Of a stretch of 7,832 bases of DNA, positions 1-7,832 are shown piece by piece (the stretch's first letter is position 1; every line of letters begins with the position of its first letter). Location of the stretch: IMG/VR virus record IMGVR_UViG_2627853765_000005; one strand, given 5' to 3'. Under the pieces are notes generated by a model. It did not search any database, was not told where the DNA came from, and worked only from the letters and a program-made list of their open reading frames with translations. The translations under genes were made by a program, and so were the position numbers. The DNA is from a virus. Lineage: Duplodnaviria > Heunggongvirae > Uroviricota > Caudoviricetes.

Positions 1-28
1 ACTAAATCAGTAAGTTGGCAGCATTACC
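1..28 (-). mobile_element. IS1 copy, terminal 28 bp only (IRL end); rest lies left of the window
   Basis: Bases 1-28 match the right end of the complete IS1 (877-904) at 27 of 28 positions. The terminus reads GGTAATGCTGCC on the minus strand, a mix of the IRL and IRR consensus. Confidence 0.8.
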
Positions 29-151
29 AAAAAGGGTGAGCGATTTTTGATAGTTGAACCAGGCACTTTAAGTTTAACTAGGGCGTCATTATTTATTAAA
101 TTTTATAGACGCTATATATGGGTAGTAATATACATGGGTAATGACTCCAAA

Positions 152-849
152 TTATTGATAGTGTTTTATGTTCAGATAATGCCCGATGACCTTGTCATGC
201 AGCTCCACCGATTTTGAGAACGACAGCGACTTCCGTCCCAGCCGTGCCAGGTGCTGCCTCAGATTCAGGTTATGCCGCTCAATTCGCTGCGTATATCGCT
301 TGCTGATTACGTGCAGCTTTCCCTTCAGGCGGGATTCATACAGTGGCCAGCCATCCGTCATCCATATCACCACGTCAAAGGGTGACAGCAAGCTCATAAG
401 ACGCCCCAGCGTCGCCATAGTGCGTTCACCGAATACGTGCGCAACAACCGTCTTCCGGAGCCTGTCATACGCGTAAAACAGCCAGCGCTGGCGCGATTTA
501 GCCCCGACGTATCCCCACTGTTCGTCCATTTCCGCGCAGACGATGACGTCACTGCCCGGCTGTATGCGCGAGGTTACCGACTGCGGCCTGAGTTTTTTAA
601 GTGACGTAAAATCGTGTTGAGGCTAACGCCCATAATGCGTGCAGTTGCCCGGCATCCAACGCCATTCATGGCCATATCAATAATTTTCTGGTGCGTACCG
701 GGTTGAGAAGCGGTGTAAGTGAACTGCAGTTGCCATGTTTTACGGCAGTGAGAGCAGAGATAGCGCTGATGTCCGGCAGTGCTTTTGCCGTTACGCACCA
801 CCCCGTCAGTAGCTGAACAGGAGGGACAGCTGATAGAAACAGAAGCCAC
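152..849 (-). CDS. insB: IS1 InsAB' transposase made by programmed -1 frameshift at the A6C motif (insA frame 849-574, insB' frame continuing to 152)
   Basis: The insB' frame translates to ...[21 protein letters not shown]...[10 protein letters not shown], the InsB sequence. The AAAAAAC slip site sits at 592-598 (minus-strand sense). The insB' frame has an in-frame TAG at 623-625 upstream of the slip site, so an independent long InsB from the ATG at 653-655 is not possible in this copy. Confidence 0.85.
574..849 (-). CDS. insA: IS1 InsA (91 aa), transposition inhibitor and N-terminal part of the InsAB' transposase
   Basis: ORF translation [39 protein letters not shown]... is the InsA protein with its zinc-finger-like CxxC...CxxC and helix-turn-helix. 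This copy has the VSL variant. Confidence 0.95.
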
Positions 850-905
850 TGGAGCACCTCAAAAACACCATCATACACTAAATCAGTAAGTTGGCAGCAT
901 CACCG

Positions 906-962
906 AAGGACGGCAAGGACATTGTGCCCGATCGCATCCGTTCCGCGCTTGGGCTTGGCTGA
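906..962 (+). pseudogene. 3' remnant (18 codons, ...KDGKDIVPDRIRSALGLG*) of the gene upstream of gpE, truncated by IS1; possibly a tail tube (P2 FII-like) gene
   Basis: An open frame runs straight out of the IS1 boundary at 904/905 to a TGA at 960-962, just upstream of the gpE-like gene. In P2 gene order (FI-FII-E-E'-T-U-D) this position is FII. The frame choice and identity are inferred, not recognised. Confidence 0.3.
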
Positions 963-1017
963 TAAGTAATATGCTGGCGGCGCAGTGCGTCGCCTCTGAC
1001 TGAAAAGGAGACAACAG

Positions 1018-1392
1018 ATGAAAGACATCGATACTGAAACCCGGAATAACACCGTGGCGGATAATGTGACGGCAGTTGAGGATATGGCTGTCGAACGTGG
1101 CGTAAAACTGACCCGACCAATTGAGCGTGGTGGCGAAAAAATCACGTATGTGGAGATCACCGGGGCTATTGAGCAGGCTGGATCCCTGCGTGGTCTGTCG
1201 CTGTCTGATGTGCTGAATCTGAAAGCGGATACCATGTTCACGCTGTTGCCTCGCGTGACCTCGCCACGACTGGATGAAGTGATGATTAAAAAAATGTCGT
1301 CACGCGATTTTATTCAGTTGTGCGCTGTGGCTGTAAATTTTATGAGTGAGCCAGACTCTGGCGCGAAGAGCGTGCAGGAGACGGCAGCGTAA
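1018..1392 (+). CDS. Phage tail assembly chaperone, P2 gpE-like (124 aa)
   Basis: ATG at 1018 preceded by AAGGAG (1005-1010). The protein contains ...SLRGLSLSDVLNLKADTMFTLLPRV..., typical of P2 E-family chaperones, and sits immediately upstream of the tape measure gene. Confidence 0.85.
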   Translation: MKDIDTETRNNTVADNVTAVEDMAVERGVKLTRPIERGGEKITYVEITGAIEQAGSLRGLSLSDVLNLKADTMFTLLPRVTSPRLDEVMIKKMSSRDFIQLCAVAVNFMSEPDSGAKSVQETAA

Positions 1393-1556
1393 TCACCCTG
1401 GTGTGCTTTGAGCACATCGAAGATCTGGTGGCGGATATTGCCGCCATTTTTAACTGGTCGCCCGCCGAAATCTTCATGATGACGCCCTGCGAAGTGGTTA
1501 GCTGGCGTGAGCGAGCGGCACTTCGTAGCGGGAATGCAGACAATGAAGACTCTTGA
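1350..1556 (+). CDS. E' extension frame (-1 relative to gpE), expected to be expressed only as an E+E' fusion by programmed frameshift
   Basis: The -1 frame is open for 68 codons from 1350 to a TGA at 1554-1556 and has no start codon of its own. It encodes ...DLVADIAAIFNWSPAEIFMMTPCEVVSWRERAALRSGN..., overlaps the last 13 codons of gpE and the first codons of the tape measure gene, as in P2 E/E'/T. The slip site was not identified. Confidence 0.5.
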   Translation, partial: ARLWREERAGDGSVITLVCFEHIEDLVADIAAIFNWSPAEIFMMTPCEVVSWRERAALRSGNADNEDS

Positions 1557-4350
1557 TATCCGGGTCGCTTTCAGCGCCGTTGACAGGCTGACCCGGCCTG
1601 CCGAAAACGCCCGCCGCCTGATGGGGCAGTTTGGTGACTCCATCCAGCGAACGCAGGGGGCGATCAAAAATCTCGAGCGTCAGGCGCGATCATTTGAGCG
1701 CGCCCGTGACGCTGTCAGTAAAGCGGATGCGGGCATCGTGAAAGCACGACGCCAGCTTAACGCCCTTAATCAGTTACAACGCACGGGTACAGTGCTCAGC
1801 GAAAAACAACAAAAGCTGATGCAGCAGTTAAGCACCCGGCTTGAACGCCTGAATGAATCGCGCACACGGGAAATTCAGAAAATGCGGGAGCTTGGCGGAG
1901 AGCTGAAACGCCACGGCATTTCCCTGACAGGCAGCGATAACACCATCCAGCAGGCCATCAGACGCACCGAACAGTACAATAACCAGCTTGAACGCGAACG
2001 GCAGGCGCTTGCGCGTGTAACACGGGCGCGTGAGCGGTATTCGCGCGCGCAGGAAACAGCGGGAAAACTGAAAACAGGTGGTGCGCTGGCAATTGGTGCG
2101 GCAGCGGCGGGCGGCTATGCTGCCGGGCGTTTTTTGCAGCCTGCGATCGGGTTCGGCAAAGAGATGTTCCGCGTTCAGGCACTGACGCGAATCGACCAGA
2201 ACAGCCCGCAGTTTAAGGCGCTGCGTGAGCAGGCGTTAAAACTTGGCTCTGAAACGCAGTTCACCGCAGGCGATGCCGCCAGTGGACAGGCATTTCTTGC
2301 AATGGCTGGCTTTACACCACAGGCCATTCAGGCTGCGCTCCCTGGCGTACTGAGCATGGCAACGGCTGGCGGTATGGACCTCGGTGAGACGGCGGATATT
2401 GGCTCAAATATTCTGACGCAGTTCGGTCTTTCTGCTGACCAGATGGACCGGGTCGGCGACACACTCACCGCAGCGTTTACCCGTACCAACACTGACCTTC
2501 GCGCACTGGGTGAAACCATGAAATATGCAGGTCCGGTGGCGGGTAAGCTGGGAATATCTCTGGAGCAGGCCGCAGCGATGGCGGGCGTGCTGGCGAATAT
2601 GGGTATCAGGGGGAGTGATGCTGGTACGGCAATGCGTGCCAGCCTGGCTCGTCTGGCATCACCGCCAAAGGCGGCAGCAGAGGCGCTGAAAGAGCTTGGC
2701 GTGTCTGTCTCGGATGCCGGGGGCAAAATGCGCCCGATGGAGGATGTGCTGGCTGACCTTTATAAAGCTACCCGCAAATACGGGGAAGTTGACCGGGTAT
2801 CGTTCTTTAAGGACATTGCCGGAGAAGAGGCTTTCACATCATTTATGGCCCTCGTTGATGCGGCAGGTTACGGCTCCTTACCCAAACTGAGAAAAGAACT
2901 TGAAGGCGCGCGCGGTGAGGCTGAACGCACGGCAAAGGTTATGGCCAACAACCTTGACGGCGATCTGAAATCACTCAGCAGTGCATGGGAAGGGTTGCGC
3001 ATCCGCATTGCAGATCTGATTGACGGTCCGCTGCGTTCTGTCACGCAGTGGCTCACGCGTGTGGTATCAAAGGTGACGGCGCTGGCGCAGGCCCATCCCG
3101 CACTGACGCGCCAGCTACTGATTGCAGGCGGTGCATTGCTGGCAATGACTGCAACGGTTGGCTCGTTGTCGCTGGCTATTGGTGTGCTTGCTGGCCCGCT
3201 GGCAAAACTGCGTCTTGGTTTTTCCCTCCTGACCGGATCAATGAATGCTGTCAGGGTTCTGCCAGCACTATGGGGAATGGTGACGGGTTCCGTTTCTTTA
3301 CTGGGAGGCGCTATCGGGGCGTTGTTCAGTCCGGTTGGTCTTATCGTGGCTGCGCTTGCCGGAGCTGCCGTTCTTATCTGGAAATACTGGGATCCCATCA
3401 GGGCATTTTTTGCCGGGGTGTTCAGCGGGATTATGGAAAGGCTGACCCCGTTGCGCGAAACATTTGAACGGTTTGGTCCTGTTTTTGACGCAATCGGGAG
3501 TGGGATCAGCCAGGTGTTTAACTGGTTTAAATCGCTGCTGTCACCGATGGAGTCCAGCAAGGAAACTCTGGATAAATGTACCAGTGCTGGCGAGATATTC
3601 GGTAACGTTCTTGGCGGTGCGTTACAACTTGTTCTGACACCTGCAAAAATGTTGCTGGATACGCTGGCGTGGATACTTGAAAAGCTTGGTGTGCTTCCGG
3701 ATGAAGCGGAAAGGGCGCGCAAGAAAATCGAAGACGCACAGCGTGCGGCCATTCTTCAGGACAAGGTTGCCTTGCTTCAGGGGGACCTGGCGAAAATCAA
3801 TCCGCCGAAGCCTGTGGAAAATGGCAATGGCACCGGAGGTGATAACCCCAAAGACAATAAACCGCTCACAGACAGCAATACCGGTACGCTGCGCAGACTC
3901 AGCAAAATTGCTGATAACACAGGTAAGCTGGTTGAGGAGACGAAAAAACGCATTGGCCCCGGCGATATTGTCTTTAAAAACCTGCCCCGAGCACTTGCTG
4001 TTCGTGGGGAGTGGCAGGAGCGGAAGATTGCGCAGGTCAGTAAGCCTGCCCCCGCAATTAATATCACACCCGTGGTTCCGGCTCCGCTGCCTCCGGCGCT
4101 GGTCCCTGTTGTTGCGGCCAGCTCCCGCCCGGTGGCGGAGGCTATACGATCTCCAGTGGCATCAGTTCCTGTAACTTCCCGTAACCGGGAGCCTGTTGCC
4201 TCCGGATTTGGTGGTGAAATTCATGTTCATCTGCATAACGTTGTTACGCAGAATCCCCGCGAACTGGCGAAACTGGTCGGTGAAATGGTCAGGGCAGAAA
4301 TGGAACGGCGCGCCCGTGCCGGGCGTGGCTGTTTTTACGATAAAGATTGA
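1543..4350 (+). CDS. Phage tail tape measure protein (P2 gpT-like, about 935 aa)
   Basis: Very long ORF directly after the chaperone pair. It has a coiled-coil-like N-terminal region rich in Q/R/E/L, a long Gly/Ala-rich hydrophobic stretch (about 3091-3390) and a Pro-rich C-terminal stretch. Start is chosen at the ATG at 1543 (GGGA 9 nt upstream); the ATG at 1534 and the GTG at 1507 are alternatives. Confidence 0.9.
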   Translation: MKTLDIRVAFSAVDRLTRPAENARRLMGQFGDSIQRTQGAIKNLERQARSFERARDAVSKADAGIVKARRQLNALNQLQRTGTVLSEKQQKLMQQLSTRLERLNESRTREIQKMRELGGELKRHGISLTGSDNTIQQAIRRTEQYNNQLERERQALARVTRARERYSRAQETAGKLKTGGALAIGAAAAGGYAAGRFLQPAIGFGKEMFRVQALTRIDQNSPQFKALREQALKLGSETQFTAGDAASGQAFLAMAGFTPQAIQAALPGVLSMATAGGMDLGETADIGSNILTQFGLSADQMDRVGDTLTAAFTRTNTDLRALGETMKYAGPVAGKLGISLEQAAAMAGVLANMGIRGSDAGTAMRASLARLASPPKAAAEALKELGVSVSDAGGKMRPMEDVLADLYKATRKYGEVDRVSFFKDIAGEEAFTSFMALVDAAGYGSLPKLRKELEGARGEAERTAKVMANNLDGDLKSLSSAWEGLRIRIADLIDGPLRSVTQWLTRVVSKVTALAQAHPALTRQLLIAGGALLAMTATVGSLSLAIGVLAGPLAKLRLGFSLLTGSMNAVRVLPALWGMVTGSVSLLGGAIGALFSPVGLIVAALAGAAVLIWKYWDPIRAFFAGVFSGIMERLTPLRETFERFGPVFDAIGSGISQVFNWFKSLLSPMESSKETLDKCTSAGEIFGNVLGGALQLVLTPAKMLLDTLAWILEKLGVLPDEAERARKKIEDAQRAAILQDKVALLQGDLAKINPPKPVENGNGTGGDNPKDNKPLTDSNTGTLRRLSKIADNTGKLVEETKKRIGPGDIVFKNLPRALAVRGEWQERKIAQVSKPAPAINITPVVPAPLPPALVPVVAASSRPVAEAIRSPVASVPVTSRNREPVASGFGGEIHVHLHNVVTQNPRELAKLVGEMVRAEMERRARAGRGCFYDKD

Positions 4351-4356
4351 GGAGTC

Positions 4357-4851
4357 ATGGCCATGATGATGATCTACGGCATGTTTGTTTTTGAGCTGCG
4401 CACGCTGCCGCATCAGCAGTTACAGCAAAACAAAAGCTGGCGGCATGTGAAAAATGAACGCGTTAACCGTTCAGCAAGCTGGCAGTATATCGGTGCAGGT
4501 GATGATCGCATCGTTCTTTCTGGTGTGCTTTATCCTGAAATTACAGGTGGCGAAGTGTCGCTGTCGCTGCTGACCACGCAGGCGTATACAGGACTACCCT
4601 GGCCTTTGATTGATGGCGTCGGGCAGATTTACGGCATGTATGTCCTGACTGAAACGAATACGACCCGCTCCGAGTTTGATCGCTACGGTAAGGCGAAAAA
4701 GATAGAATTTTCACTGACTCTTGAACGCTGTGATGAGGATTTGCGGGAGCGCCTGCAATCCTCATCGTTCAGTGATATGCTGTCCGGCTTCAAAGATAAG
4801 GTGACATCATCTCTTAACAGCGCGGCCAGTTCAGTTAAAGGGCTGTTCTGA
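4357..4851 (+). CDS. Phage tail protein, P2 gpU-like (164 aa)
   Basis: Translation ...GMFVFELRTLPHQQLQQ...LSGVLYPEITGG...WPLIDGVGQIYGMYVL...KKIEFSLTLER... matches the P2 gpU family pattern and follows the tape measure gene as in P2. GAGGAG at 4349-4354; the ATG at 4363 is an alternative start with better spacing. Confidence 0.85.
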   Translation: MAMMMIYGMFVFELRTLPHQQLQQNKSWRHVKNERVNRSASWQYIGAGDDRIVLSGVLYPEITGGEVSLSLLTTQAYTGLPWPLIDGVGQIYGMYVLTETNTTRSEFDRYGKAKKIEFSLTLERCDEDLRERLQSSSFSDMLSGFKDKVTSSLNSAASSVKGLF

Positions 4852-4860
4852 TTTAACACA

Positions 4861-4890
4861 AAAACCGCTAATGGTCAGATTAGCGGTTTT
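4861..4890. terminator. Bidirectional rho-independent terminator hairpin between convergent gpU and the invertase gene
   Basis: Perfect inverted repeat AAAACCGCTAAT (4861-4872) / ATTAGCGGTTTT (4879-4890) with a 6-nt loop GGTCAG, followed by TTTTCATTTT on the plus strand and a U-rich run on the minus strand. The right arm overlaps the last codons of the invertase. Confidence 0.65.
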
Positions 4891-5479
4891 CATTTTCCTG
4901 AGTCTGCCCGGTTGTTTCTTCAGTCTGTATATCGCCTACAGGGTGATAACGATAAATCGTCGATGTGCCAATGCCGTAAATTATTGCCAGTTGTTTTCTG
5001 TCGTGCCCGTTTTTGATTAGCCTTGCTATTTGCTCATGCTGTTCTTTTGTCAGCTTCGGTCGACGTCCGCCTGTGCGCCCCCTTGCGCGCGCTGCCGCCA
5101 GCCCGGCCAGTGTACGTTCAACAATTAATTCACGTTCCATTTCAGCCAGGGCACCCATCACGTGGAAGAAAAAACGCCCCATTGGAGAAGATGTGTCTAT
5201 GCTGTCGGTCAGACTGCGAAAATTAATCCCTCGCTCCCGTAGTTCCCCGACGAGAGAAATCAGATGTTTCATGCTTCGCCCGAGGCGATCCAGTTTCCAG
5301 ACAACCAGCGTGTCACCTTTTTGAAGGCGCTTTAAAGCGCGTTTTAATCCCGGTCGGTCTGTCTTTGTCCCGCTTAATTTATCTTCAAATATTTGTTCAC
5401 ATCCTGCACAAACAAGAGCGTTTCGTTGCAGGTCTGTATTCTGGTCATTTGTTGATACCCTTACATAGCCAATCAGCAC
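4880..5479 (-). CDS. Serine DNA invertase of the Gin/Pin/Cin/Hin family (about 199 aa)
   Basis: From the GTG at 5479 (GGGAG 7 nt upstream) the protein begins (M)LIGYVRVSTNDQNTDLQRNAL..., the canonical invertase N-terminus with the catalytic serine. It continues ...GDTLVVWKLDRLGRSMKHL...MGRFFFHVMGALAEMERELI... and ends with a helix-turn-helix (...QLAIIYGIGTSTIYRY...). Confidence 0.93.
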   Translation of the reverse strand: MLIGYVRVSTNDQNTDLQRNALVCAGCEQIFEDKLSGTKTDRPGLKRALKRLQKGDTLVVWKLDRLGRSMKHLISLVGELRERGINFRSLTDSIDTSSPMGRFFFHVMGALAEMERELIVERTLAGLAAARARGRTGGRRPKLTKEQHEQIARLIKNGHDRKQLAIIYGIGTSTIYRYHPVGDIQTEETTGQTQENENR

Positions 5480-5533
5480 ACTGAATCTCCCGTCCAAAAG
5501 CGCAAATCATGCCATGCAGGCCAGAAACGGCCA

Positions 5534-5559
5534 TTATTTAAAACCTCGGTTTACAGGAA
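5534..5559. promoter_or_regulatory. gix/pix/cix-type 26-bp recombination (crossover) site for the invertase
   Basis: The minus-strand reading TTCCTGTAAACC-GA-GGTTTTAAATAA matches the Mu gixL sequence as I recall it at 24 of 26 positions, with the central GA dinucleotide at 5546-5547. It lies between the invertase start and the fibre cassette, and the fibre reading frame opens inside it. Confidence 0.8.
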
Positions 5560-5583
5560 ACGGTAAACAGGGCTGGTAACGCC

Positions 5584-6420
5584 GTGCAAAAAAATGGCGA
5601 TACCTTGTCCGGTGGGCTTACTTTTGAAAATGACTCAATCCTTGCCTGGATTCGAAATACTGACTGGGCGAAGATTGGATTTAAAAATGATGCCGATGGT
5701 GACACTGATTCATACATGTGGTTTGAAACAGGCGACAACGGCAATGAATATTTCAAATGGAGAAGCCGCCAGAGCACCACAACAAAAGACCTGATGACGC
5801 TGAAATGGGATGCACTAAATATTCTTGTTAATGCTGTCATTAATGGCAGTCTTGGAGTTGGTTCGACGAATGCGTTAGGTGGTAGCTCTATTGTTCTTGG
5901 TGATAATGACACCGGATTTAAACAGAATGGAGACGGTATTCTGGATGTTTATGCTAATAGTCAGCGTGTATTCCGCTTTCAGAATGGAGTGGCTATTGCT
6001 TTTAAAAATATTCAGGCCGGGGATGGTAAAAAATTCACGCTATCCAGCTCCAACAACTTCACAAAGAATGCAACGTTTAATTTATGGGGTGCTTCAACCC
6101 GTCCAGTAGTTGCAGAGTTAGGCGATGAGGCAGGATGGCATTTCTATAGCCAGCGAAATACAGATAACTCGGTAATATTTTCTGTTAACGGTCAGATACA
6201 GCCCAGCAACTGGGGGAATTTTGATTCACGCTATGTAAAAGATGTTCGCCTGGGTACGCGTGTTGTTCAATTGATGGCGCGTGGTGGTCGTTATGAAAAA
6301 GCCGGACACGCAATTACCGGATTAAGAATCATTGGTGAAGTAGATGGCGATGATGAAGCCATCTTCAGACCAATACAAAAATACATCAATGGCACATGGT
6401 ATAACGTCGCACAGGTGTAA
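5584..6420 (+). CDS. Tail fibre C-terminal variable-domain cassette (Mu S / P1 S family); likely the silent copy in the present orientation
   Basis: The frame is open from 5542, immediately after a TAA inside the gix site; the first in-frame start is the GTG at 5584, with no convincing ribosome-binding site. The C-terminus ...RPIQKYINGTWYNVAQV resembles the second cassette on the opposite strand. It is followed directly by a tail fibre assembly gene. Confidence 0.8.
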   Translation: MQKNGDTLSGGLTFENDSILAWIRNTDWAKIGFKNDADGDTDSYMWFETGDNGNEYFKWRSRQSTTTKDLMTLKWDALNILVNAVINGSLGVGSTNALGGSSIVLGDNDTGFKQNGDGILDVYANSQRVFRFQNGVAIAFKNIQAGDGKKFTLSSSNNFTKNATFNLWGASTRPVVAELGDEAGWHFYSQRNTDNSVIFSVNGQIQPSNWGNFDSRYVKDVRLGTRVVQLMARGGRYEKAGHAITGLRIIGEVDGDDEAIFRPIQKYINGTWYNVAQV

Positions 6421-6423
6421 ATT

Positions 6424-6951
6424 ATGCAGCATTTAAAAAATATTAAGTCCGGAAATCCAAAAACAAAAGAACAATATCAGCTAACAAAGAATTTTGATGT
6501 TATCTGGTTATGGTCCGAAGACGGTAAAAACTGGTATGAGGAAGTAAATAACTTTCAGGACGACACCATAAAGATTGTATACGACGAAAATAATATTATT
6601 GTTGCCATAACCAAAGATGCCTCAACGCTTAATCCCGAAGGCTTTAGTGTCGTTGAGATTCCAGATATAACAGCCAATCGTCGCGCCGATGATTCAGGGA
6701 AGTGGATGTTTAAGGACGGAACTGTGGTTAAGCGGATTTATACAGCAGACGAACAGCAACAACAGGCCGAATCACAAAAGGTCGCGTTGCTTTCTGAAGC
6801 TGAAAGCGTTATTCAGCCACTGGAACGCGCTGTCAGGCTGAATATGGCGATGGATGAGGAACGCACACGACTGGAGTCATGGGAACGCTACAGCGTTCTG
6901 GTCAGCCGTGTGGATACAGCAAATCCCGAATGGCCACAAAAGCCTGAGTAA
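6424..6951 (+). CDS. Tail fibre assembly protein (Tfa / Mu U family, 175 aa)
   Basis: Protein [24 protein letters not shown]...[30 protein letters not shown]... is Tfa-like. It starts 4 nt after the fibre cassette stop and is paralogous to the minus-strand ORF at 6980-7513. Confidence 0.85.
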
Positions 6952-6956
6952 AAATT

Positions 6957-6976
6957 AAGGCCCAATATCGGGCCTT
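6957..6976. terminator. Hairpin between the convergent tail fibre assembly genes, a possible bidirectional terminator
   Basis: AAGGCCC (6957-6963) / GGGCCTT (6970-6976) with a 6-nt loop. It is flanked by an A/T-rich run on the minus-strand downstream side; the plus-strand U tract is weak. Confidence 0.4.
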
Positions 6977-6979
6977 CTC

Positions 6980-7513
6980 TCATTCTGGTTGTTCGGGAAA
7001 CGTTACTGGCAGGCTGGAGGTGTCTGTAGATTCGACTTTCTGCGCATAGAGCATCCACTCGGTTAATTTTTGTTTATTCTCGTCGGAAATGATGCCCAGC
7101 CGTAGCTGTGAGTCCCATAGCTGGGTTTTATCCCTGACAAGTTGCAACAGGCTTTGCTTTTCATTTTCCGCTTGTTGCCTCTGCTCTTCCTCGGTATAAG
7201 TTCGCTTTATCACTACGCCATCTTTGAACAACCATTTCCCCGAAATATCAGCCCGGCGATTTGCTGTAATATCAGGTAATTCAACGACGCTTGCGCCTTC
7301 CGGATTAATTGCTGAAACATCCTTTTCAATACAAATAATAACGCCGTTATGGTCATAGACCATTTTCAAAGTGTCTGGCTGGAAATTCTTTTGCTCCTCA
7401 TACCAGTTTTTTCCATCATCTGAATAAAGCCATTTGATGTTAAATTGCTTTGTTAGCTGGTATTGCTCTTTTGTTTTAGGGTTGCCAGCAGTAATGTTTT
7501 TTAAGTGCATCAT
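6980..7513 (-). CDS. Tail fibre assembly protein, second copy (Tfa / Mu U' equivalent, 177 aa)
   Basis: Protein [24 protein letters not shown]...[30 protein letters not shown]... is a paralogue of the 6424-6951 product. GGGGAG lies 9 nt upstream of the ATGATG start at 7513. Confidence 0.85.
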   Translation of the reverse strand: MMHLKNITAGNPKTKEQYQLTKQFNIKWLYSDDGKNWYEEQKNFQPDTLKMVYDHNGVIICIEKDVSAINPEGASVVELPDITANRRADISGKWLFKDGVVIKRTYTEEEQRQQAENEKQSLLQLVRDKTQLWDSQLRLGIISDENKQKLTEWMLYAQKVESTDTSSLPVTFPEQPE

Positions 7514-7515
7514 CG

Positions 7516-7802
7516 TTAAATACTCCCCGCGTTATACCACGTCCCATTAATGCAATACTGAATTGGCCTTGCCTGTGTTGTATCAATTAATTCATCACGG
7601 TTTCCGTTAACTGAACCCGTAACGACATAACCTGACCTGTCAGACCAGCCGGGACCATTCCATGTCTGAACAGATGACAGACCGCCAAGGCGAATACCTG
7701 TAATAAACCTTGAGTTACATTCTGCCCGCGTATATGCACCAACATCTCCCGCTGAAGGTTTTCGTGTCGTGGTATAGAAATCTGACCAACCTAATTCAAC
7801 CC
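7516..7802 (-). pseudogene. Second tail fibre C-terminal cassette (Sv' equivalent), 3' part only; its 5' part is interrupted by IS1
   Basis: My manual minus-strand translation is open for 96 codons from the IS1 junction to a TAA at 7516-7518: ...GAYTRAECNSRFITGIRLGGLSSVQTWNGPGW...QARPIQYCINGTWYNAGSI*. The C-terminus parallels ...RPIQKYINGTWYNVAQV of the plus-strand cassette. There is no start codon before IS1 begins at 7803. Confidence 0.75.
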
Positions 7803-7832
7803 GGTAATGACTCCAACTTATTGATAGTGTTT
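7803..7832 (-). mobile_element. IS1 copy, first 30 bp only (IRR end); rest lies right of the window
   Basis: GGTAATGACTCCAACTTATTGATAGTGTTT matches the IS1 IRR terminus and 137-166 at 29 of 30 positions. It is in the same orientation as the complete copy. Confidence 0.85.

What the first reader, a model, noticed from the sequence alone, without database searches (positions are those of the whole stretch)
1335..1556. E/E' frameshift region has no canonical slippery heptamer where the shift must occur
The E' frame is closed by a TGA at 1347-1349 and open from 1350, while gpE stops at 1390-1392. A productive -1 shift must therefore happen within 1350-1389 (CCAGACTCTGGCGCGAAGAGCGTGCAGGAGACGGCAGCG). 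I find no X_XXY_YYZ motif there. The only textbook heptamer nearby, A_AAT_TTT at 1335-1341, leads to a stop three codons after slipping. Either the shift uses a non-canonical site, or a mutation has inactivated E+E' in this degraded prophage.
Basis: partly seen in the sequence, partly recalled or inferred. Interest (0 to 1): 0.5.

Follow-up and report, generated by a model that had tools for sequence, protein, structure and literature searches.

The report
Hidden stop kills prophage tail frameshift
This is an ordinary P2-type tail-chaperone frameshift site in an IS1-truncated prophage remnant: one C-to-T change, silent in gene E, put a stop codon two codons after the slip site, so the fused E+E' protein can no longer be made.

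Summary
E is 1018-1392. The in-phase heptamer A_AAT_TTT is at 1335-1341. A -1-frame TGA lies at 1347-1349. There is no slippery motif in 1350-1389, not even a run of three identical bases.

The cause is a lineage-specific mutation, not a non-canonical shift site. All 117 fetched relatives have C at 1347, giving CGA (Arg) in the E' frame and AGC (Ser) in E. None of 639 copies in complete E. coli genomes matches the window's 61-mer exactly.

In the eight relatives analysed, the heptamer is followed by an open -1 frame into E'. In a fused-protein alignment it falls in the same column as the annotated T_TTT_TTG site of phage P2.

The prophage remnant (905-7802) is cut on both sides by IS1. It lacks the sheath gene, nearly all of the tube gene, and the baseplate and head genes. 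A contig with the same IS1 junctions still has C at 1347, so the stop arose after the prophage was degraded. Six other assemblies or runs carry the T, so it is not a sequencing error.

Verdict: a known kind of element, here a decayed copy. Interest is low.

The parts
137..904 (-). Complete 768-bp IS1 copy (insA 574-849, insB 152-529, A6C slip motif 592-598). It replaces everything upstream of the last 58 nt of the tail tube gene. A further IS1 end lies at 1-28.
   Evidence: Pfam DDE_Tnp_IS1, Zn_ribbon_InsA and HTH_Tnp_IS1. IS1A-family annotation under BLAST hits. Terminal repeats read directly. A6C motif.
905..962 (+). 3' remnant of the tail tube gene (P2 FII homologue), stop TGA 960-962.
   Evidence: Similarity to Xuanwuvirus phages and prophages starts at about 902-905. 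The tube CDS in relatives ends at the equivalent of 962.
1018..1392 (+). Gene E homologue (tail assembly chaperone, 124 aa), intact.
   Evidence: BLASTP against P2 gpE: 35% identity over 89 aa, E 3e-15. phrog_103 'tail protein', 126.6 bits. Pfam Phage_TAC_7 only 20.7 bits, below the cutoff of 25.
1335..1341 (+). Slippery heptamer A_AAT_TTT, the inferred -1 shift site (P site AAU Asn, A site UUU Phe).
   Evidence: Only in-phase heptamer in E. Same alignment column as the annotated T_TTT_TTG site of P2 and the heptamers of 186, P88, Chuche, phiT5282H and ST16-OXA48phi5.4. H_HH.U_UU.Y motifs are among the most efficient in E. coli (PMC4066793).
1347..1349 (+). TGA in the E' (-1) frame created by C-to-T at 1347. 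It is synonymous in E (AGC to AGT, Ser110) and nonsense in E' (CGA Arg to TGA).
   Evidence: C in 117 of 117 fetched relatives. 0 of 639 E. coli copies match the window 61-mer exactly. The T allele recurs in six other records of the same remnant.
1350..1556 (+). E' reading frame (-1 relative to E), now unreachable. It encodes the conserved W..ER.GDG stretch and the Phage_P2_GpE domain, and overlaps the start of the tape measure gene. It also carries G1488T (Gly to Cys).
   Evidence: Pfam PF06528, 47 bits against a cutoff of 23. 48% identity to P2 E', E 3e-17. phrog_1756, 122.8 bits. Alignment. Substitutions.
1543..4350 (+). Tail tape measure gene (P2 T homologue), 935 aa, intact ORF.
   Evidence: Pfam PhageMin_Tail, 197 bits. 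Annotated as such in relatives.
7803..7832 (+). End (inverted repeat) of another IS1 copy, truncating the tail fibre gene.
   Evidence: The sequence GGTAATGACTCCAACTTATTGATAGTGTTT is near-identical to the IS1 end at 137. Similarity to intact prophages stops at 7802.

Best explanation
The window is a 6.9-kb remnant (905-7802) of a P88-like (Xuanwuvirus, Peduoviridae) prophage, bracketed by IS1 copies.

How the intact relatives work (inferred). The E gene carries a P2-type programmed -1 frameshift. Ribosomes with tRNA-Asn on AAU in the P site and tRNA-Phe on UUU in the A site at A_AAU_UUU occasionally slip back one base. They then continue in the -1 frame through the end of E and on to a stop just inside the tape measure gene. 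This gives a 179-aa E+E' fusion (108 + 71 aa) alongside the 124-aa E. By homology with P2 E/E+E' and lambda G/GT, the two act as tail assembly chaperones for the tape measure protein and tail tube.

What happened here. A single C-to-T transition at 1347 is silent in E but turns the third -1-frame codon after the slip (CGA, Arg) into TGA. Shifted ribosomes now terminate after Tyr-Glu and give a 110-aa product. E' is unreachable because no site downstream of the stop allows re-pairing. The change arose after IS1 had already removed the rest of the tail genes, so it is most simply neutral decay.

Shown: the sequence facts, homology, allele distribution, the IS1 truncation and the order of events. 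Inferred: the exact slip site, its efficiency, and the chaperone function.
For: - Frames, heptamer and stop.
- C at 1347 in 117 of 117 relatives. No exact match to the window's 61-mer among 639 places in 599 complete E. coli genomes.
- The eight relatives analysed, in five Peduoviridae genera, each have an in-phase heptamer inside the open -1 window. All fall in one column of the fused-protein alignment ('..V[NPG]F|'), the column of P2's annotated frameshift site.
- P88 and Chuche have a -1-frame TGA between the A7 run and the heptamer. That rules out the upstream A7 run as the conserved site.
- Homology to P2 E and E'.
- The -1-frame peptide between the slip site and the E stop (W..ER.GDG) is conserved across genera. 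This fits translation from the slip site rather than from GTG 1401.
- A_AA.U_UU.U belongs to the high-efficiency H_HH.U_UU.Y class in E. coli (PMC4066793).
- IS1 truncation.
- L033 has the same IS1 junctions at both ends, 4 mismatches and no gaps, and still has C at 1347.
- The T allele is present in six further independent records of the remnant.
Against: - No frameshift product has been demonstrated for any Xuanwuvirus. The slip site is assigned by homology and motif.
- In the closest relatives the -1 frame is open from 1290. Other upstream sites (A_AAA at 1290, T_TTT at 1308, or transcriptional slippage on A7 at 1288-1294) could contribute there, although all of them also run into the TGA in this window.
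- 'Neutral decay' rests on very few substitutions: about 3 non-synonymous plus 1 nonsense against 3 synonymous.
- Low-level UGA read-through cannot be excluded.
- Whether the missing tail genes exist elsewhere in this genome is unknown.
Confidence: 0.9

Rival explanations
1. A non-canonical but functional -1 (or +2) shift occurs between 1350 and 1389, so E+E' is still made.
For: The E' frame is intact from 1350 to 1556 and still matches Pfam Phage_P2_GpE. A locally predicted hairpin starts at 1350.
Against: 1350-1389 has no heptamer, no in-phase tetramer and no run of three identical bases, so no tRNA can re-pair. The hairpin is not better than shuffled sequence (z -0.6). No structure is conserved across relatives (consensus energy -0.29 kcal/mol). 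The same 40 nt occur in relatives that have the upstream heptamer with an open frame, so nothing points to a second site. The TGA allele is confined to one degraded lineage.
Confidence: 0.02
2. The T at 1347 is a sequencing or assembly error in this draft contig, and the real sequence is CGA.
For: It was the only T among the 117 relatives first fetched. The window is a short contig of a draft assembly.
Against: The same T is present in six other records from different assemblies and sequencing runs that carry the same remnant: L128-L133, from GCA_014020815.1, GCA_013996515.1, ERR6005813, SRR8186619, ERR1363998 and SRR15338601.
Confidence: 0.01
3. E+E' is still produced at a low level by double recoding: a -1 slip at A_AAU_UUU followed by read-through of UGA (Trp inserted in place of Arg).
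For: From general knowledge, UGA is the leakiest stop codon in E. coli. Everything downstream of the stop is intact apart from Gly to Cys at 1488.
Against: The yield would be the product of two low-frequency events. The context is UGA-G, with no known read-through signal. The remnant lacks the sheath, tube and baseplate genes, and (inferred) the late promoter upstream of the sheath gene, so there is nothing to assemble. The allele is absent from all intact prophages examined.
Confidence: 0.04
4. E' is an independent gene translated from GTG 1401, as public annotation has it, so the TGA at 1347 is irrelevant.
For: NCBI and other pipelines call a 51-aa 'GpE family phage tail protein' from this GTG in relatives.
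Against: There is no Shine-Dalgarno sequence at a usable distance; the AGGAG at 1376-1380 is 20 nt upstream. The -1-frame peptide upstream of GTG 1401 and upstream of the E stop is conserved across genera. phrog_1756 aligns from residue 2 of the translation that starts at 1350. P2's homologous E' is annotated as a -1 fusion with a defined site, and 186's as a probable frameshift product (PMC3091744).
Confidence: 0.03

Closest known systems
Bacteriophage P2 E / E+E' programmed -1 frameshift (FETUD tail operon; Christie et al. 2002, cited through PMC3091744 and the NC_001895 annotation)
   Same: Same gene order (tube, E, E', tape measure). E is 35% and E' 48% identical to P2's. The E' frame lacks its own start and overlaps the end of E and the start of T. 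The slip site falls in the same alignment column. There is no conserved downstream stimulatory structure.
   Different: The heptamer is A_AAT_TTT, one codon upstream of P2's T_TTT_TTG. P88 and Chuche carry both as A_AAT_TTT_TTG. E is longer (124 against 91 aa) and the overlap after the slip is longer (16 codons against 6). In this window the -1 frame is closed by TGA two codons after the slip, so the fusion cannot be made.
Phage lambda G / GT tail assembly chaperone frameshift and its conserved counterparts in tailed phages (Xu, Hendrix and Duda 2004; reviewed in PMC5009743)
   Same: Two overlapping reading frames lie between the major tail gene and the tape measure gene. A low-frequency -1 shift near the end of the first gives a fixed ratio of short and extended chaperone.
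   Different: I did not test sequence similarity to lambda G or T. The link is architecture and inferred mechanism only.
Intact Xuanwuvirus phages and prophages (P88, 503458, 520873, P884B11, Shae_phiSM, the UTI89 prophage)
   Same: 86-99.6% DNA identity over this region, with identical gene order and the same heptamer.
   Different: They have CGA or CGG (Arg) where the window has TGA, and they retain the sheath, tube, D, baseplate and lysis genes that IS1 has removed here.

Membership tests
P2-type E / E+E' tail chaperone frameshift cassette (Peduoviridae) | Located between the tail tube gene and the tape measure gene | tested here: met
   Tube 3' end 905-962, E 1018-1392, tape measure 1543-4350. 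Relatives have the same order.
P2-type E / E+E' tail chaperone frameshift cassette (Peduoviridae) | Upstream ORF homologous to P2 gpE | tested here: met
   BLASTP E 3e-15, 35% identity over 89 aa. phrog_103, 126.6 bits. The Pfam Phage_TAC_7 match is below its cutoff (20.7 against 25 bits).
P2-type E / E+E' tail chaperone frameshift cassette (Peduoviridae) | A -1 frame extension homologous to P2 E' (Pfam PF06528) that overlaps the end of E and the start of T and has no ribosome binding site of its own | tested here: met
   PF06528, 47 bits against a cutoff of 23. BLASTP E 3e-17. Overlaps read directly. No Shine-Dalgarno sequence near GTG 1401.
P2-type E / E+E' tail chaperone frameshift cassette (Peduoviridae) | An in-phase slippery heptamer near the end of E from which the -1 frame is open into E' | tested here: not met
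   The heptamer A_AAT_TTT is present at 1335-1341, but the -1 frame is closed by TGA at 1347-1349. The feature is met in the eight relatives analysed. This copy is therefore a mutated, non-functional member by descent.
P2-type E / E+E' tail chaperone frameshift cassette (Peduoviridae) | Demonstrated synthesis of both E and the E+E' fusion, with both required for tail assembly | not testable with these tools
   Known for P2 only: the NC_001895 annotation says 'essential tail protein' and 'site of -1 translational frameshift'; see also PMC3091744. The held papers checked report no experiment on a Xuanwuvirus E/E' frameshift.
Non-canonical -1 frameshift sites (tetramer Z_ZZN or structure-driven) | At least a Z_ZZN tetramer that allows A-site re-pairing, or a strong conserved stimulator, inside 1350-1389 | tested here: not met
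   No run of three identical bases in 1350-1389. Folding z-scores of -0.6 and -0.7. No conserved structure.

The most novel reading that the evidence does not exclude
The lineage still makes a trace of full-length E+E' by two successive recoding events: a -1 slip at A_AAU_UUU, then UGA read-through that inserts Trp for Arg. On this reading the IS1-bounded remnant is retained for some function rather than decaying. Separately, and much more likely but of little novelty: Xuanwuvirus phages use A_AAU_UUU, one codon upstream of P2's U_UUU_UUG, and public annotation misses the fusion throughout.
Probability: 0.03. Interest if true: 0.35.

Novelty: new member of a known kind. Interest (0 to 1): 0.1.

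Why it matters
It matters little for biology.

There are two practical points.

First, a substitution that is synonymous in the annotated gene can destroy a frameshift-encoded product. ORF-based annotation cannot see this. Here E and the 51-aa 'GpE family' ORF both still look intact in the public records.

Second, the P88-like phages are present in about 600 of 5,426 complete E. coli genomes. They evidently use A_AAT_TTT rather than P2's TTTTTTG, yet none of the seven annotated records examined here annotates the E+E' fusion as a joined CDS. Curators could fix that.

Tried and rejected
- **RNA structure downstream of the heptamer.** Single-sequence folds of the T and C alleles give z -0.57 and -0.73. 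A seven-sequence consensus fold gives -0.29 kcal/mol and 3 pairs. There is no stimulator, which agrees with reports for P2-like phages.
- **The A7 run at 1288-1294 as an alternative slip or transcriptional-slippage site.** P88 and Chuche have a -1-frame TGA between it and the heptamer, and other genera lack the run. Any upstream site also runs into TGA 1347 in this window.
- **The +1 frame.** It is full of stops.
- **Sequencing error.** Rejected by recurrence in independent runs.
- **Independent initiation at GTG 1401.** No Shine-Dalgarno sequence, and there is conserved -1-frame peptide upstream of it.
- **Scan of one genome per species for the T allele.** 0 hits, so the source genome is not in that collection.
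- **Source organism.** A literature search for the assembly accession found nothing. The organism name of GCA_000815765.1 remains unknown to me. An IS1-rich Escherichia or Shigella is my inference only.
- **Christie et al. 2002 (PMC135442).** Not held. P2 facts are taken from PMC3091744 and the NC_001895 annotation.
- **Promoter and terminator scan of 800-1700.** Chance-level matches only.

Full report
**1. The observation.** The E-like ORF runs from ATG 1018 to TAA 1390-1392 (124 aa). The -1 frame reads ...CGCKFYE* with TGA at 1347-1349. It is then open from 1350 to TGA 1554-1556, which overlaps the tape measure gene (ATG 1543). A script that lists in-phase X_XXY_YYZ motifs finds exactly one in E, A_AAT_TTT at 1335-1341. 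A slip there reads TAT GAG TGA. The stretch 1350-1389 holds no heptamer in any phase, no in-phase Z_ZZN tetramer and no run of three identical nucleotides. No tRNA could re-pair in the -1 frame there. The +1 frame is closed many times.

**2. What the region is.** The DNA is 98-99.6% identical to Xuanwuvirus (Peduoviridae) phages 503458, 520873, P884B11 and Shae_phiSM, and about 86-87% identical to P88, Chuche, 500465-2 and PhiR44_2.
- In those records the order is sheath, tube, a 121-124-aa 'tail protein', a 51-aa ORF, then the tape measure gene.
- The 124-aa protein is 35% identical to P2 gpE (E 3e-15) and matches phrog_103. Its Pfam Phage_TAC_7 match is below threshold (20.7 against 25 bits).
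- The -1-frame translation from 1350 matches Pfam PF06528 Phage_P2_GpE (47 bits against a cutoff of 23). It is 48% identical to the E' part of P2 E+E' (E 3e-17).
- So this is the P2 E/E' cassette. In P2 a -1 shift at TTTTTTG gives E (91 aa) and E+E' (142 aa) (PMC3091744). The P2 RefSeq record marks the site at 19685 and calls both products essential tail proteins.

**3. Where relatives shift.** For the eight relatives analysed I located the E stop, the extent of the open -1 frame and the in-phase heptamers. Each has a heptamer inside the open -1 window:

| Phage | Heptamer |
|---|---|
| P2 | T_TTT_TTG |
| 186 | T_TTT_TTG |
| phiT5282H | C_CCT_TTT and T_TTT_TTG |
| ST16-OXA48phi5.4 | C_CCT_TTC |
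| P88, Chuche | A_AAT_TTT and T_TTT_TTG |
| Shae_phiSM, 503458, UTI89 prophage | A_AAT_TTT |

- Building the fused proteins and aligning them puts all these sites in one column, '..V[N/P/G]F|'. That is the column of P2's annotated site.
- The window's clade lost the P2-type heptamer (TTG became ATG) but kept the overlapping upstream one.
- A_AA.U_UU.U belongs to the H_HH.U_UU.Y class, which Sharma et al. list among the most efficient -1 motifs in E. coli (PMC4066793).
- The -1-frame peptide between the slip site and the E stop (W..ER.GDG) is conserved across genera. This argues for translation from the slip site and not from the GTG at 1401 that pipelines annotate.
- In P88 and Chuche a -1-frame TGA lies between the A7 run (window 1288-1294) and the heptamer. 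The A-run is therefore not the conserved site.
- There is no conserved downstream RNA structure, as reported for P2-like phages.

**4. What is different in the window.** The five-way DNA alignment shows one difference near the site. The window has T at 1347 where all the others have C.
- In E this is AGC to AGT, Ser to Ser.
- In the E' frame it is CGA (Arg; CGG in P88) to TGA.
- A scan of IMG/VR for the 32-mer with either base gave 112 contigs. Together with the phage and E. coli loci, that makes 117 of 117 relatives with C.
- A 61-base query centred on 1347 matched 639 places in 599 complete E. coli genomes, none of them exactly.
- A scan of one genome per species found no T allele.

**5. Real or error, and when.** A look-up of the window's exact U protein showed that the window is the whole contig AMKD01000124.1 of GCA_000815765.1.
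- The look-up returned nine other records.
- Six of them (L128-L133, from two other NCBI assemblies and four sequencing runs) carry the T. Four of these reach the left end and show the same IS1 junction; L128 and L133 begin just inside the remnant. The T is therefore a real, lineage-fixed mutation.
- Three intact prophages with the same U protein (L125-L127) have C.
- The IMG/VR contig L033 covers window 879-7832 with 4 mismatches and no gaps. It has the same IS1 junctions at both ends, and it has C at 1347. The stop therefore arose after the IS1 truncation.

**6. State of the prophage.**
- Window 137-904 is a complete IS1.
- Positions 1-28 and 7803-7832 are ends of two further IS1 copies.
- Only the last 58 nt of the tube gene remain (905-962), and the tail fibre gene is cut at 7802.
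- The sheath, D, baseplate, lysis and head genes that flank this segment in UTI89 and GDSC2BY4G are absent from the contig.
- Substitutions specific to this remnant lineage are few: about three non-synonymous (including Gly to Cys at 1488 in E'), one nonsense and three synonymous. That is compatible with relaxed constraint, but the numbers are too small to prove it.

**7. Mechanism and consequence.** In intact relatives a minority of ribosomes (inferred) shift -1 on A_AAU_UUU and make a 179-aa E+E'. By homology with P2 and by analogy with lambda G/GT, it acts with E as a tail assembly chaperone on the tape measure protein. In this window the shifted ribosomes stop after two codons and give a 110-aa product. 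E' cannot be reached from any upstream site, because A_AAA at 1290, T_TTT at 1308 and the heptamer all lead into the TGA. It cannot be reached from downstream either, because no motif exists there. With no tail to build, the loss has no cost.

**8. Verdict.** The 'non-canonical site' reading is rejected and the 'inactivating mutation in a degraded prophage' reading is supported. This is a decayed member of a known recoding family. The only mildly useful by-products are the A_AAT_TTT site assignment for P88-like phages and the reminder that a synonymous change can be a hidden nonsense mutation in an overlapping frame.

Noticed in passing
window 1-28, 137-904, 7803-7832: There are three IS1 ends or copies, all in the same orientation, in one 7.8-kb contig. 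The complete copy carries its own programmed -1 site (A6C at 592-598, minus strand) between insA and insB. The window is an entire draft contig (AMKD01000124.1), presumably broken at IS1 repeats.
   Followed up: partly
window 1401-1556 and equivalents in L002-L006, L124-L128: Public records annotate E' as a free-standing 51-aa 'GpE family phage tail protein' or 'tail fiber protein' starting at GTG. None of the Xuanwuvirus records I examined joins it to E as an E+E' CDS. The TGA at 1347 is therefore invisible to annotation.
   Followed up: partly
window 1488: G-to-T gives Gly to Cys in E', at a residue that is Gly in Xuanwu-, Reipi- and Novemvirus relatives (Thr in P2 and 186). It is shared with the sister contig L033, so it predates the TGA.
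   Followed up: partly
window 4880-7802: This looks like an invertible tail-fibre (host-range) segment. It has a resolvase/invertase (4880-5479, minus strand), a fibre C-terminal cassette (5584-6420), two opposed tail fibre assembly genes (6424-6951 plus strand, 6980-7513 minus strand), and a 40-nt imperfect inverted repeat at 6367-6406 / 7530-7569.
   Followed up: no
window about 2289, 2555-2556, 2844, 2902 (tape measure gene): About 35-43 relatives show 1-nt and 2-nt insertions relative to the window at these points in BLAST alignments. This could be a compensated frame change in a variable part of the tape measure gene, or an alignment artefact.
   Followed up: no
window 1426-1446: A terminator-like hairpin followed by T5 lies inside the conserved E' coding sequence (ADIAAIFNW). 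The count is at chance level for the region.
   Followed up: no
L002 1921-1930, L003 1928-1937, L008 1120-1129: P88, Chuche and phiT5282H carry two overlapping in-phase heptamers (A_AAT_TTT_TTG or C_CCT_TTT_TTG), a 10-nt slippery stretch. The window clade and ST16-OXA48phi5.4 keep only the upstream one, and P2 and 186 only the downstream one.
   Followed up: partly
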